Source of the DNA: Cystobasidiomycetes sp. EMM_F5
Lineage: Eukaryota
Reading direction: 5' to 3'
NCBI GenBank assembly: GCA_051047955.1
Contig: JBPGPT010000003.1
Location: 1 to 64,000 of the forward strand
Length of the DNA stretch: 64,000 nucleotides
Below the pieces are notes generated by a model that was given only the letters and a program-made list of their open reading frames with translations, was not told the origin of the DNA and searched no databases. Positions within the stretch are counted from its first letter, which is position 1, and every line of letters begins with the position of its first letter. Position numbers and translations under genes: made by a program. This document shows positions 32,381-38,400 of this stretch, in pieces.

Positions 32381-33214
32381 ATGTCGGCAGTATCAGGTCA
32401 ACACTGCTATCCCGACCGCGGGTTCTTCTGGGAAGAGACTGGCAAACACTTGCAAATAGTCAGCGAGCCAGAGTGAGTATCCAGCATGCTTACGACCTCG
32501 CGCTTCCGTCTATCGCTGACCTCGAGCGATTACCAAAACAGGCCCATGCCGAATTTCGGCAGGCACTCGACATGGTCCATCGTACACAAAGCTGACCAGA
32601 CGGACGACGAAACGTCTGGTAGCACTTCATCTTTGCACGACGCGGGTCCAGAGTTGTCAAATGGTTCCAATCAAGACTGCGAGACATGCTGCGATGATGC
32701 CGCAGAACGCTCTTGCTGCATCGGATACGATTGCAACGATGCGGACTGCCCTATCACTGCGCTGGAGTGTTCCTGCTGTAAGGAAGATGGGGAATGCTGG
32801 TCGCCTCTGCCCAGTGGCTCTTCGGCGAGATCCTACGACACATCGACCGTTGCCATCCACTCCATTTTCGACGATTACCCCATGTCTTCTGTGGAGGCTT
32901 CTCCGACCATCCTCACACGCATTCCCTCTTACGAGTTCCGTCCTCTGCACTACTATGAGCCTGCCAACCCGCATTTCCTCGACATCAAGCTCAAGTCCCT
33001 ACAAATGTCACAGAAGCGGAGGGAACGGGAGGAAAGCGAAGCCAAGACACTGCATGCCGATACCGAAGGTCCCATACACGAAGAGAGGTGGCAGCGTGCA
33101 CTACAATTCGCAGCATTTCATCGCACGGGCAGCGCTGGCAGCCTTGAGCAGTTGGATGATCCGGACACGGTTCCTTTTGGATTGCGCATCCTACTGCGGA
33201 GAGTTACCTTATGA
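32381..33214 (+). CDS. Hypothetical protein with an acidic Cys-rich cluster
   Basis: ATG at 32381. Intron 32473-32541 (GTGAGT...GCTGAC...AACAG) joins in frame to the long ORF ending at 33214. Confidence 0.6.
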
Positions 33215-33435
33215 ATGTTCGAGGGCACGAGACTGGCAATTACCATGTTGTTCATTGGGCCACCTTGTTATATTGCAAGATCAGAGCGTTGACGGTCTTA
33301 GCGGTATTTGACTATGGACACTAGTAGAAGCGAGCATGACAATCCGATATATGAGATATGCGTTCAATCATCAGTCTATGCTCCCAATGACCACAATTTG
33401 CCAATCGCCCTATTTCTTGTTTATTCCCAGCCAGT

Positions 33436-33538
33436 GCCACGTCGACGCTCTCCTTTCCCCCAATACCCGTGACGTGGCACATCCAATTTTCAGCAAAACA
33501 CCCCTTCCTGCTCAGCTCTGATTTGCAGCGACACGTCG
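33436..33538 (+). promoter_or_regulatory. UPRE-like bZIP sites upstream of the HAC1-like gene
   Basis: GCCACGTCG 33436-33444, TGACGTGGC 33470-33478, GACACGTCG 33530-33538, lying 100-200 bp before ATG 33641. Confidence 0.6.
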
Positions 33539-33640
33539 ACAGCTGCGCTGGTCGGAGAGCTTTAGCCCTGTCGGACTTCATCACCTACCTGTACTCCCCT
33601 CGTTTAAGCTCTCCGACCCAGATCTTCACCACTCCACGAC

Positions 33641-34808
33641 ATGCCCAAGCGAGCAAGAGAGGCGTCCATCGCCTGCTCATCGTCTTCGTACGACACTACC
33701 AGTGACCTATCCTTCGACACTCCTGCCAAACGCCGTGCAACTGCAGCTACCGTAAGTATACTTACGGCCCAATCCTTCGATCACGTTCCATGGAGCTGAG
33801 GCGGTGTATTCAACAGAGCCATGGACAAACATCGGCCAGTGCAGACAAGGCTGCGAGGCAAGAAGCACGTAAGGAACGAAACAGGATATCCGCTCAAGCC
33901 TCGAGGGATCGCAAGAAGTCTGAGCGAAGTGGAATGGAGGACAGGTTGGCAGAAGCTGAGCAACGCGTGGCAGAATTGACTGCAGAGAATGCTCAGCTCC
34001 GTGCTGAGGCCCTGCAAAGTCAACAAGCGCAGGCAGATCGGACCGCCGAAATGGAGAACCAGCTTCGAGCTTTCGAAGACCGGTTCAAATTGTTGGAAGG
34101 TCTCCTAAATATACAGAGCGCTGGCAATTTAACACCACAACCGCAACCACCCACCTCTATTCTATCGCCGCCCACAGTGTCGACTACCACTGCTACATCA
34201 TCACAGCAGCTTCCGCTCACGCACCTGCAATTGCCCTCGACCGCGTTAACTGGCAGCGAGACCCATGCTACGGGTATGCACTCGCTTGCACGTTCGATGC
34301 AGTCGAGAGTGGCGAAAGCAGTACCAGAGCCTACAGCGGCTATGATACCGTTACAGCACAATCAGCCGAAGCGCACAACGATCTCGGTCTCGGCTTCCTT
34401 TCCTTTGACTTCAACGCCGACATGCTCAATTATCAAACAAGTAATGCCGATGAGGTCTTCCACCCTTCGACCTACTCCCTCACGTCGACCTATCCTGCAG
34501 ACTTTGCGGACCAGACTTCGATACCGGAGGGACAGTGGTCCACGGCAGAAGCTCATCTTGACAATCAAGAAGCTTTAGAAGCACTCTTGGCGAACCTTGC
34601 ATCCAGCAACTGCGACGCCCAATCTGGGCAGGACGCCATGTTGGATGCTTTTACCGAACAAGTTCATCAGCAGCAGGAGCCATTCAGCACTGATCTCTTT
34701 GGCGATTTCGACTTCCAAGCCATCCTATCATCACACGTTCCGGCGCCCTCGCCCGCGATGTGGAACAACGGAAACGCCCTCGGCCTTGATCTTGGGATAG
34801 CCGCATAG
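33641..34808 (+). CDS. HAC1: bZIP transcription factor, Hac1/Hxl1/Cib1/XBP1-like
   Basis: ATG 33641 and spliceosomal intron 33752-33816. bZIP RKERNRISAQASRDRKK plus zipper. The unshifted frame ends at 34578 with a basic tail; an overlapping acidic/aromatic frame ends at 34808. Confidence 0.8.
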
Positions 34809-35423
34809 GGCATATCATTTGCACTCCCTTTCGACTTTTCTTCCCCCTCTCAGCCAATCTTTCCATCCTCACGATGCCGATTCCACAAGTACTCGTCATG
34901 CAAGAGGCTTTCCACGTCTGTCGCCCAGTGGCGTACGTATTGACACGGCGAATCAGGGTATCCGTACTCCTTCATCCCCGATATGCGTGCTCGCGCCCTC
35001 AACGAGGATGCCGCTGAGCTTACCGTATCGGAGGGTGCAGAGTGTGGACACCCCTTTCCCGTCCATTCAACCTCGTTACGTTCACGTTGATCAGTCGATG
35101 AGTTGGCAACTTCTTGTAAGCAAGCGGGAGTGTGGAGCGTTTGTCGTCGAAGGAACGGGAATTGAAATGTCTGATAGCCTTTGTTTGTAGCCTGTTGCTT
35201 ACATTCGTTGTATGTTAGCTTGGATAGTGGTGCCGCCAATGATAGAAGTCTCCTCGATTATCTTGTGCCTCCCCGGCTGGTTCGTTGGAGCATTGGCCGT
35301 TGATGTTCTACTCTACTATTGGGCACGGCGCAATTCCACTTCTTGCTTAACTATGCCCTCCCACGTCCATGCTGGAACTTACAGCAGGATGGTCATGTTA
35401 CTGACTGCTGATACAGTGGAGAT

Positions 35424-38400
35424 ATGAGCGAGCCGGTGTTGCCGCCTGCTCGGGCGCGGACGCCGACAGCCAGCACCCATCATCACCCACGCAAGAAGCT
35501 GCTCAATAGGCTACACGCTATCGTATCAGGGCCTAAACGTCTGCTAGGTAATCCGACACCTCCAATTCTCGACCCATACACTCCAAGCGGTGGTAGCGAA
35601 ACATCGTCATCGGTCAATAGTAATCTTGGCGAGAGTGATGACGACGAACAACAGTCATCGTCCAAACGTACCGCTCACCTGGATGACCAAGGCGAGGATG
35701 GACGAGCGGAGAGACGGAGAGGTCGCTCAGGCACGGCTTTGCCAATGGCTATACAATCAGCAGCTGCATCATCGAACGCAGGCAGGGCTCCACCGCTATT
35801 CAGAAGCGATTCTGCGTATAGTTCTCGCGTAGAACATATAATCGACACGGAGACGCCGCAACCTCCGGTAATCATCAGACCCCACTTTAAAATCCGTATC
35901 GTAACTTGGTGGGTAGTGAGATGAACGATGGCGGCAGCTCAATCAGTGACTATCCAACTGATCTCAGGAATATGCACGACTCTTTACCTTCTGGCGATTT
36001 GACAGAGCTGATGGGCCACAATGAAGGACCGAATATCAAAACGAGTTGCTCCAATCTTGAAAATGATAGCACTAGACCGACATCAGGGGCCAATGTAACA
36101 ACATCTGAATCTTCAGGATACGGCGGAGAATCTGGCAATCCTGATAATGATCAATTTGGCATACTCTCGGACAAATCGCCATATCATTTGGTAGTCGTGG
36201 GCGGCCAAGAAGTCCCGGTAGGTGGTATGGGATGGAATATGCCCAACTGGACGGAGGTTGTACAATCCTGGTTGGACGGCGGACAGCAATTCGCTCAGCA
36301 GAATTCTACGGCTGCAATGCGCCGAGAATCACAAGTACCAAGCGACACTGAAGGAAGGGCGGTGTCGCCATCTAGCAACCTACATGTGGCAGAGCAAGCC
36401 CTTTCCATGAGCGATAGCCCAATCTCGCCGCCCGTGTCGTCCGCCTCAGCGAGTTTTCCCGATGCGGCCAGTCCTCTTCTGCGAACAGAGGATCAAGTCT
36501 CAATCAATGCGAACAAAGATGCTGGCTCAGACAGTGCGGATCGTACACCGCAAGAAGCGCATTCCACCCCCTTTGCGCACACGAACGGGGAGTGGCCAAA
36601 GATAGACGACGAGGCGGTTGAGTCTGATATGCCTAATGAAACCGCCTTAGACGTTCAAGACGAACGTCTTTTACCCACTGCAGGAATCCGAGACCGCATT
36701 GGCGTTGAATCCACTACGATGCTTTCTCCTGTTCGCACGGAGGGTCTGTGTGCAATCCCAGCGTCTCAAGTTCCAAGTCCACTGTTACAGCCGATGATAC
36801 CCGCAAAAGATCGGGAGAAACGAGGCAGTATTACTGCTGCCATGCTTGGAGGCTTGCGGTCAGACAAGGATCGACTTCGGGATAAGGAAAAGGATAGAAT
36901 GAAAGACAACCAAGAAGCAGAGCGACGGCAAAGACAGGCAAACTCAGCTTACATACTAGTTACCAAAGAACGCCTGATGGGCATCTACATCAGCATATGG
37001 GTGCACAGAAGCGTGCAGCATCTCTTGCGAGGCAGCAGCACCGGCACTGTAACTGCAGGCTTACTAGCGGGAAAACTCGGTAATAAAGGCGCCGCATGTG
37101 TCGCTGTGCACATGAATGCATACTCCGGTCCTAATTTTGCCGATAGAAGTGGCGAAGACAGGTCATTGCGGCTGTTGTTCGTCTGTGCTCACCTCGCTGC
37201 GCATTCGGAAAAAGCGGCTACTCGGCAACAGAACGTGAACAAGATCAAAGAAGAACTCCTTATAGATACTTTCCGCGGTGATGAAACTCTGCGCAGTGAT
37301 GAAAGCAAAGAGGAGGCCAAGGAACGCTTACATCGAGAACACCGAGAGCGTGCAGATGCGCGTACTACCGATATCACAGATGCCTTTGACTACACTTTCT
37401 GGTTCGGAGATTGTATGCATATGCTTTCGCTCGCATTGGAGATATGCTCACACGGACACTTTCAGTGAATTTCCGTCTAAATATTTCCAGGCTGCACGCC
37501 GATTACCTCATCAATAAACAGAAAGACTATGCGACCGCCCTGTCGTTCGATCAACTGGCACCAATCCTGTGAGCGATCTTGTTGAGTCTTATAGTCGTTT
37601 CGTCCTGCTAATGTCAGCATTGTACACAGGCGAGACCCTGCCGGGTGTTTCAGCGGTTTTAAAGAAGCGCCAATCACCTTTCCTCCCTCGTATAAGTATG
37701 ATCTGATTAAGCTGAAACGCACGAAAACTTTGCAGAGAGCAAACACAACCTCATCAACCACTTCTTTACATCAACCCGAAGGACGCGCAGCCAAGGCCGT
37801 ATCAATGCAGCCAAGCGCATCGCGAACGACTCTTCCTATTAAAGAGTGCGATGAGTGTGCTATTGATGGCGAAGATGGCGAAGATGACGAAGAAGATGGC
37901 ATTTCACCTGTCGATGATCGCAAGACGGTGGCTAGCTCTAAAGCGTCTATCAGATCCTCGTACTCGATGACCGATCGACAGCTCGATATCATTCATCAGC
38001 ACAGTGTCGTGTCGAAGAAGTCTACGCCAAATTCTCCTATTCCCACTGCCGAGAAGCTAGCAGACAGCGCCAAAAACTTCTTCAACATTCACCGTCCACA
38101 AAGTGTCCTCGCTCGCGTCACTTCCTCATCGTGTGCAAATGATGCTGCAGCTCGTCTCGAGACAGGGGCCGAAAGCCTACCTGCTTCGAGTCCTGATCGT
38201 GCTGCAACTGATAATCTTGCCTCGGCGGTCCAGATCACTGCTACAGGCAACGATGTCGGAGGTGTCTCGGAGCTCAACGAGAACCCGCAAATTTCGGTAT
38301 CCTCGCCTCAATCACCTCGATATTTCACGCGCCCGATCTTGCCACGCATGAGGACCAGTACCACTATCACATCAAGCTTTGATGTTACTAGAGCGCCCAG

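What the first reader, a model, noticed from the sequence alone, without database searches (positions are those of the whole stretch)
34273..34808. HAC1-like frame switch with atypical Ire1 stem-loops
Seen: the bZIP frame ends in a basic tail at 34578. An overlapping frame (SGYDTVTAQSAEAHNDLGLGFLSFDFNADML...DLFGDFDFQAIL) looks like an acidic activation domain and needs removal of 3n+2 nt. Established: Ire1 introns of 20, 26, 56 and 65 nt are all 3n+2. Seen: a long hairpin at 34273-34325 with apical ATG|CAGT, and an adjacent hairpin AGCC-TACAGC-GGCT at 34328-34341. Both deviate from CNG|CNG, and canonical-register cutting between them removes 34 nt, which gives a stop rather than the activator. 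Frame-compatible options are a 35-nt offset cut, 34289-34353 (65 nt), 34334-34353 (20 nt, in the register of ascomycete hacA), or a spliceosomal GTATGC..TTACAG intron at 34274-34356 (83 nt). Inference: altered Ire1 specificity or a different switch mechanism; a 1-nt assembly error is also possible.
Basis: partly seen in the sequence, partly recalled or inferred. Interest (0 to 1): 0.75.

Follow-up and report, generated by a model that had tools for sequence, protein, structure and literature searches.

The report
Yeast stress switch, possible 11-base intron
This yeast's protein-folding stress gene (HAC1/XBP1 type) seems to be switched on by cutting just 11 bases from the tip of one long RNA hairpin, instead of cutting at two separate hairpins; if confirmed, that would be shorter than any such intron we found in print.

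Summary
The two overlapping frames are real. This is the HAC1/XBP1-type bZIP gene of a Cystobasidiomycetes-type yeast, and relatives show the same layout, so an assembly error is very unlikely.

The conserved element starts upstream: a 35-nt block (34252-34286), invariant but for one pair-keeping change in three DNAs, at the tip of an unbranched ~147-nt hairpin (34200-34346; z -3.7, -6.4, -5.9).

The tip holds two AUG|C sites 11 nt apart (3n+2): one in a 7-nt loop (G34267), one in a 5-nt bulge (G34278). The second is forced by the peptide in 12 of 12 orthologues and is the only near, frame-compatible G|C partner shared by all. Best model: Ire1 excises 34268-34278 and Trl1 ligates. The shortest Ire1 intron I found in print is 19 nt.

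No spliced read was seen, so the cut is inferred. Ire1 shows no sign of altered specificity at the positions checked. The scan noted twin-loop HAC1 introns in other genomes, not this one-hairpin form.

The parts
33641..33751 (+). Coding exon 1 of the HAC1/HXL1-like gene (ATG at 33641, 37 codons)
   Evidence: Sequence; N-terminus resembles those of P0003, P0004, P0007; joins exon 2 in frame
33752..33816 (+). Ordinary 65-nt spliceosomal intron (GTAAGT..CAG), phase 0
   Evidence: inferred from consensus and frame; HXL1 also has a conventional intron before the bZIP (PMC3154848)
33847..34023 (+). bZIP domain
   Evidence: Pfam PF00170 E 3.2e-6; own-genome scan
33817..34578 (+). Unspliced frame; 290-aa protein with exon 1, ending in a basic, acid-poor tail
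34200..34346 (+). Long unbranched irregular RNA hairpin (42 pairs enclosing the tip in the MFE); exon-exon stem under the best model; conserved in fold, not in arm sequence
   Evidence: z -3.70, 0 of 200 shuffles; orthologues z -6.44 and -5.87; two flanking controls z -1.02 and +0.32
34252..34286 (+). Invariant 35-nt block at the hairpin tip: core stem 34255-34260 with 34281-34286, 4-bp helix 34261-34264 with 34272-34275, 7-nt loop, 5-nt bulge
   Evidence: 9 of 10 codons identical vs 2 of 18 in the bZIP, Fisher p 7e-5
34265..34271 (+). Proposed 5' cleavage loop AUG|CUAC, cut after G34267
   Evidence: Only 7-nt G-at-position-3 loop with a stem of 4 or more shared by all three DNAs; P0011 peptide implies CNG|CNGC in this register (codons inferred)
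34276..34280 (+). Proposed 3' cleavage site AUG|CA in a 5-nt bulge, cut after G34278
   Evidence: Forced by M|H or M|P in 12 of 12 orthologues; inferred, not observed
34268..34278 (+). Proposed 11-nt unconventional intron; removal gives a 363-aa protein ending at the acidic frame's stop
   Evidence: inference
34293..34307 (+).
   Evidence: frame-compatible but paired in context and absent in L006 and L007
34279..34808 (+). Acidic, hydrophobic-patch C-terminal frame (probable activation domain), 175 aa after the proposed junction
   Evidence: 26 D/E vs 1 K/R; L006 30 vs 8; L007 25 vs 1; activator role inferred from XBP1/HacA

Best explanation
The gene is this yeast's UPR transcription factor. 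Its mRNA folds into one long hairpin whose tip flips between a closed form (the two AUG motifs paired) and an open form (7-nt loop, 4-bp helix, 5-nt bulge). Under ER stress Ire1 cuts after G34267 in the loop and after G34278 in the bulge (both AUG|C). The 11-nt piece drops out, the long stem holds the two exons together, and Trl1 ligates them. The frame moves from the basic tail to the acidic tail. Shown: frames, conservation, covariation, predicted fold, presence of Ire1 and Trl1. Inferred: the cuts, the enzyme, the stress dependence, the activator role.
For: (1) Block invariance is at RNA level: 9 of 10 codons identical against 2 of 18 in the bZIP. (2) Outer stem has 3 pairs changed on both sides; 44 of 45 cells pair; slid controls 18-47% (n=3, structure drawn from these sequences). 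(3) The hairpin is significant in all three DNAs, with the block at its tip, like the long exon-exon stem S1 of XBP1 (PMC4687415). (4) With a cut at G34267, L006 offers only three frame-compatible G|C partners: +11, +17, +446. +17 lies in the paired core and fails in P0010 (S|F). +11 is forced in 12 of 12 sequences, about 7 separate lineages by my grouping. (5) All 8 observed amino-acid changes in the block can keep the core stem, the 4-bp helix and both G|C; 37 of 72 one-base-reachable changes could. (6) P0011's two changes give CNG|CNGC at the 5' loop if its Ser is TCN. (7) Both sites fit the S. pombe Ire1 motif UG|C, cut in 3- to 9-nt loops (PMC6037481; bias against G at +2, PMC3470409). 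(8) Ire1 RNase domain and Trl1 are present. (9) Only this one of 11 bZIP hits shows a long basic/acidic frame overlap (crude scan without introns).
Against: No spliced read, contig or protein was found. The 3' site is in a bulge, not a hairpin loop, and I found no precedent. The open form is the minority in the predicted ensemble (0.26, 0.06, 0.26). The second AUG could be conserved because of the closed form or a GTATGC donor rather than cleavage. Only three DNAs; nine other orthologues are peptides with inferred codons. Both loops break the S. cerevisiae rule CNG|(C/A)NGN.
Confidence: 0.57

Rival explanations
1. Ire1 uses the conserved 5' loop (G34267) but a separate, lineage-specific 3' hairpin: here the reader's AUG|CAGU loop (G34299), giving a 32-nt intron; other species use other sites.
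For: Frame-compatible, 7-nt loop, 4-bp stem, same AUG|C motif; the short region 34250-34330 folds as a two-armed structure. P0003 and P0006 allow UG|C at +32 and P0007 forces one at +38. It lines up with the LQR-type peptide of P0016, P0017, P0025 (that this is their 3' site is recalled).
Against: G34299 is paired in the long stem at probability 1.0. L006 and L007 have no such site; their nearest frame-compatible 7-nt loops are at +287 and +344, with unlike motifs, and would delete much of the acidic frame. P0008 allows no UG|C but +11 within 45 codons.
Confidence: 0.2
2. A regulated spliceosomal intron: the conserved G|GTATGC at 34274 is a donor hidden in the hairpin and joined to a downstream AG (83 nt here).
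For: GTATGC is compatible with all 12 peptides and present in 3 of 3 DNAs; in-frame YAG acceptors exist at 29, 83, 92 nt (window) and 65 nt (L006). Gene model P0002 uses a 29-nt GT-AG.
Against: No CTRAY or CTGAG branch before any of 13 in-frame AGs listed; L007 has one in-frame AG within 260 nt, an AAG. GTATGC is not enriched in 271 kb (ratio 1.09, rank 76 of 256) and is followed by branch plus YAG in 11% of cases, against 27% for GTRAGT and 14% background. L007 lacks the ordinary intron kept in P0010 yet keeps the block. A donor does not explain the 7-nt loop. An ATGAT at 34342 could be a weak branch for the 83-nt option.
Confidence: 0.08
3. The hairpin is cut once (decay or translational control) or serves another role, and the acidic frame is reached rarely or by another route such as ribosomal frameshifting.
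For: All 12 orthologous sequences are in the unspliced frame; only one proper loop is conserved; the Ire1 interface is of the type that the authors of PMC8104961 link to decay activity.
Against: A 175-199 aa acidic frame is kept open in 3 of 3 DNAs. In L007 that frame has a stop just before the block, so any switch falls inside the stem, where I saw no slippery heptamer by eye.
Confidence: 0.09
4. Same 11-nt excision, but by another nuclease such as the tRNA splicing endonuclease reading the loop-helix-bulge like a bulge-helix-loop motif.
For: Two like motifs follow each strand of a 4-bp helix; archaeal pre-tRNAs are cut at bulge-helix-bulge motifs (PMC13149111). The AUGC repeat makes the product the same for shifted cuts.
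Against: The bulge is 5 nt, not the 3 nt I recall for that motif; P0011 points to an Ire1-type loop; no stress link is evident.
Confidence: 0.05
5. A 1-nt assembly error splits one continuous frame.
For: No reads cover the site, so it was not checked directly.
Against: The identical 262-aa unspliced-frame protein is on record on a 143,805-nt contig while this contig is 839,066 nt; L006, L007 and nine proteins show the same layout.
Confidence: 0.01

Closest known systems
Cryptococcus neoformans HXL1 (56-nt Ire1 intron; PMC3154848, passages read)
   Same: Basidiomycete bZIP, conventional intron before the bZIP, unconventional intron after it, different C-termini
   Different: HXL1 has stem-loops at both borders with CAG; here one hairpin, AUG|C at both proposed sites, 11 nt proposed
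Metazoan XBP1 bifurcated stem-loop (PMC4687415, passages read)
   Same: Long bulged exon-exon stem holding the ends; frame switch
   Different: XBP1 has two arm stems with 7-nt C(C/U)G|CAGC loops; here the second arm would be reduced to a 5-nt bulge
Candida albicans HAC1 (19 nt) and Aspergillus/Trichoderma hacA (20 nt) (PMC6222058, PMC13703316, passages read)
   Same: Very short intron causing a frameshift; block conserved at peptide level
   Different: 19-20 nt with two hairpin loops; the proposed intron is about half that
S. pombe Ire1 UG|C sites (PMC6037481 passages and section 8; PMC3470409 passages)
   Same: UG|C motif, variable loop size; the SPAC4G9.15 substrate printed there contains the same seven letters as the 5' loop here
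   Different: S. pombe has no HAC1 and cuts for decay; splicing at UG|C was shown only with an engineered 30-nt, two-site cassette

Membership tests
HAC1/XBP1/HXL1 UPR transcription factors | N-terminal bZIP of the Hac1/XBP1 type | tested here: met
   PF00170; top Atlas cluster 'X-box-binding protein 1', score 0.95, mostly Basidiomycota (automatic name); PDB search gave only weak generic bZIP hits
HAC1/XBP1/HXL1 UPR transcription factors | Two alternative C-termini in overlapping frames, joined by a short deletion | tested here: met
   1 of 11 bZIP hits in G000
HAC1/XBP1/HXL1 UPR transcription factors | Activates UPR genes; loss gives ER-stress sensitivity | not testable with these tools
   needs knockout or expression data
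Canonical twin stem-loop Ire1 intron | Two separate stem-loops, each with a 7-nt loop | tested here: not met
   One conserved 7-nt loop only; the second conserved site is a 5-nt bulge
Canonical twin stem-loop Ire1 intron | CNG|(C/A)NGN at both sites | tested here: not met
   AUG|CUAC and AUG|CA in 3 of 3 DNAs; consensus from PMC6037481; P0011 may meet it at the 5' site (inferred)
Canonical twin stem-loop Ire1 intron | Exon-exon stem enclosing the intron | tested here: met
   under the 11-nt model; prediction plus covariation in three sequences
Canonical twin stem-loop Ire1 intron | Ire1 kinase-RNase and tRNA ligase in the genome | tested here: met
   G000:C13 Ire1; G000:C46 Trl1 ligase domain
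Canonical twin stem-loop Ire1 intron | Stress-induced, Ire1-dependent excision | not testable with these tools
   no reads covered the site
U2 spliceosomal intron | GT donor with branch point and YAG acceptor in frame | tested here: not met
   Donor-like GTATGC present, no consensus branch before any in-frame AG in three DNAs
Rfam RNA families | Match to a covariance model | tested here: not met
   6 chance-level matches, none near a gathering score, 33300-35300

The most novel reading that the evidence does not exclude
Cystobasidiomycete yeasts have compressed the twin-hairpin Ire1 intron into one hairpin tip: two AUG|C sites, each three bases after a strand of a shared 4-bp helix, release an 11-nt intron. 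It would be the shortest natural Ire1 intron, a natural case of splicing at S. pombe-type UG|C sites, and a bistable RNA tip could set the threshold of the switch.
Probability: 0.55. Interest if true: 0.85.

Novelty: new variant of a known kind. Interest (0 to 1): 0.72.

Why it matters
Two hairpin loops with CNG|CNG are taken as the defining substrate of Ire1 splicing and are used to find HAC1/XBP1 genes. An 11-nt intron at one hairpin tip would reset the lower size limit, show that a bulge can serve as a splice site, and link the decay-type UG|C specificity to productive splicing. It would also mean that such switches are missed: gene finders bridge them with false GT-AG introns (as P0002 appears to), and read aligners would report so short a gap as a deletion (recalled behaviour). 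A 60-nt RNA and purified Ire1 would test it directly.

Tried and rejected
Run search: no RNA holder listed; 2 runs with small shares. Laid: 3 contigs covering 34024-34254, 34473-34626 and 34671-34835, none across 34255-34472, so no information. Three protein searches (7, 16 and 10 hits), a representative search with the acidic frame (1 hit, P0002) and cluster look-ups for 10 proteins (4 of the 5 extra members read) gave no naturally spliced form; this blank is not evidence. Metagenome scan: 15 hits, 13 dropped as unrelated bacterial-type frames, 2 kept. Viral and prokaryote collections: 0 hits. My first model (32-nt intron) was demoted after L006 and L007. CAG|CAG-type motifs downstream in L006 and L007 were rejected: wrong frame for the conserved 5' loop, stems of 2 bp or less, Gln-rich coding. 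Cuts at -14 or -11 paired with G34267 were rejected because they lie in the stem and -11 fails in P0011 and P0023 (Asn). A recalled precedent for a tiny Ire1 intron in S. pombe was not found in the section read and is not used. Promoter CCACGTCR boxes: 6 in the window against 4.1 expected, no support. Literature: 0 papers with 'Cystobasidi' and 'Ire1'; 0 with HAC1, Ire1 and an 11-, 14- or 17-nt intron phrase; none of the 20 listed or 15 listed held the taxon word; one search listed nothing on Ire1 micro-introns. Hooks and Griffiths-Jones 2011 is not held and is known to me only through citing papers; its alignments, the HXL1 figure S2 and papers outside the open library may bear on the size record.

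Full report
Gene and frames. The window holds a bZIP gene starting at 33641, with an ordinary 65-nt intron (33752-33816) and a second exon whose frame stops at 34578. A -1 frame runs to 34808. The first tail is basic and the second acidic. The named homologues are from Cystobasidiomycetes, and more distantly Sporobolomyces and other basidiomycetes. The Atlas places the protein with an XBP1-named cluster. Among 11 bZIP hits in G000, only this one shows a long basic/acidic overlap, in a crude scan that ignores introns. Ire1 and Trl1 are in the genome.

Both fold when cut out alone, at modest z-scores, and the frame arithmetic is right. In 220 nt of context they have probabilities of 0.01 or less, and orthologues lack them.

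What is conserved. All close homologues keep a 12-residue peptide far from the bZIP. A degenerate scan of JGI contigs gave 15 hits, of which 2 are orthologues, L006 and L007. L007 lacks a 28-residue insert present in its near-twin P0010, so it looks like processed mRNA that still carries the two-frame layout. Across the three DNAs, 34252-34286 is identical but for one A-to-G change that keeps a pair with U. Nine of 10 codons are identical there against 2 of 18 in the bZIP (p 7e-5). The block caps an unbranched hairpin of 42-49 enclosing pairs whose arms differ in sequence (z -3.70, -6.44, -5.87, controls -1.02 and +0.32). The inner part of the arms shows 3 pairs changed on both sides (22 of 500 shuffles reach this; three sequences only).

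The tip. Twenty nucleotides (34261-34280) can fold as a 4-bp helix with a 7-nt loop AUG|CUAC and a 5-nt bulge AUG|CA (-11.7 kcal/mol), or with the two AUG motifs paired (-12.2). The loop is the only 7-nt, G-at-position-3 loop with a stem of 4 or more shared by all three DNAs. In P0011 two amino-acid changes would turn it into CNG|CNGC, the canonical motif, provided its Ser codon is TCN; the closed fold loses a pair there. I take G34267 as the 5' cut with fair confidence.

The 3' cut. It must lie 3n+2 downstream. In L006 the only G|C candidates in the whole acidic frame are +11, +17 and +446. +17 is inside the core stem and impossible in P0010. +11 is forced by Met-His or Met-Pro in 12 of 12 sequences. 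All 8 observed substitutions in the block are compatible with the stem, helix and both sites, where 37 of 72 reachable ones would be (the substitutions are not all independent). Removing 34268-34278 gives a 363-aa protein ending at the acidic frame's stop, and makes the whole long stem exon-exon, as in XBP1 (PMC4687415).

The enzyme. The G000 Ire1 RNase domain aligns to human IRE1 with the same Asp and Lys in the two stretches that carry the dimer-interface positions (my mapping of these columns to yeast 992 and 1059 is recalled, as the yeast alignment was not printed). PMC8104961 states that human IRE1 and most species have this tolerant pattern, and its supplement lists D/K for Cryptococcus, Ustilago, Rhodotorula and Mixia (rows found by search). 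So the enzyme is of the common type at these positions; other specificity changes were not tested. S. pombe Ire1 cuts UG|C in loops of 3 to 9 nt and can splice an engineered UG|C cassette, which makes the chemistry plausible.

Against and open. No spliced molecule was seen. The bulge site has no precedent in what I read. The open tip is a minority fold. The spliceosomal reading lacks branch points. P0002 matches the window letter for letter in both frames and sits on a contig of the same length, so it is not independent, and its 29-nt intron looks like a gene-finder bridge.

Comparison and verdict. Published lengths seen: 19 nt (C. albicans) to about 850 nt, 20-23 nt in moulds, 56 nt in HXL1. 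It works like a HAC1/XBP1 switch, but fails two defining features of the canonical twin stem-loop intron, so I file it as a new variant. Papers were read as passages or named sections only; others (Mucorales Trl1 preprint; PMC4891664) passages added nothing used here. Interest 0.72; 11-nt Ire1 model 0.57.

Noticed in passing
window 33434-33518: Three CACGT-core boxes within 90 nt of the promoter, resembling UPRE/CRE sites (resemblance recalled); possible autoregulation. The motif is not above chance window-wide.
   Followed up: partly
window 34286-34303; P0017: A second pair of G|C sites 11 nt apart (after G34288 and G34299) is also frame-compatible in the window only. Its peptide resembles SLARRATLQR of Sporobolomyces pararoseus P0017, where the same reading would give a 17-nt intron; possibly a relic of the ancestral basidiomycete sites.
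   Followed up: partly
P0002, P0013, P0014, P0015, P0024: Public gene models of these HAC1-like genes run from the bZIP into an acidic tail without the conserved basic-frame peptide, suggesting gene-finder introns across the unconventional site; shown by frame arithmetic only for P0002.
   Followed up: partly
L006 (minus strand, flanks of the block): CAG-rich Gln codons upstream pair with CAG/CUG/UUG repeats downstream, so poly-Q coding in two different frames builds the long stem.
   Followed up: partly
window 35891-37468 (+): Downstream frame with an endonuclease/exonuclease/phosphatase domain (PF22669, E 1.5e-12), probably an inositol polyphosphate 5-phosphatase (inference).
   Followed up: no
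window 32477-33214 (+): 245-aa open frame with a Cys-rich stretch and no Pfam match, ending about 430 nt before the bZIP gene.
   Followed up: no
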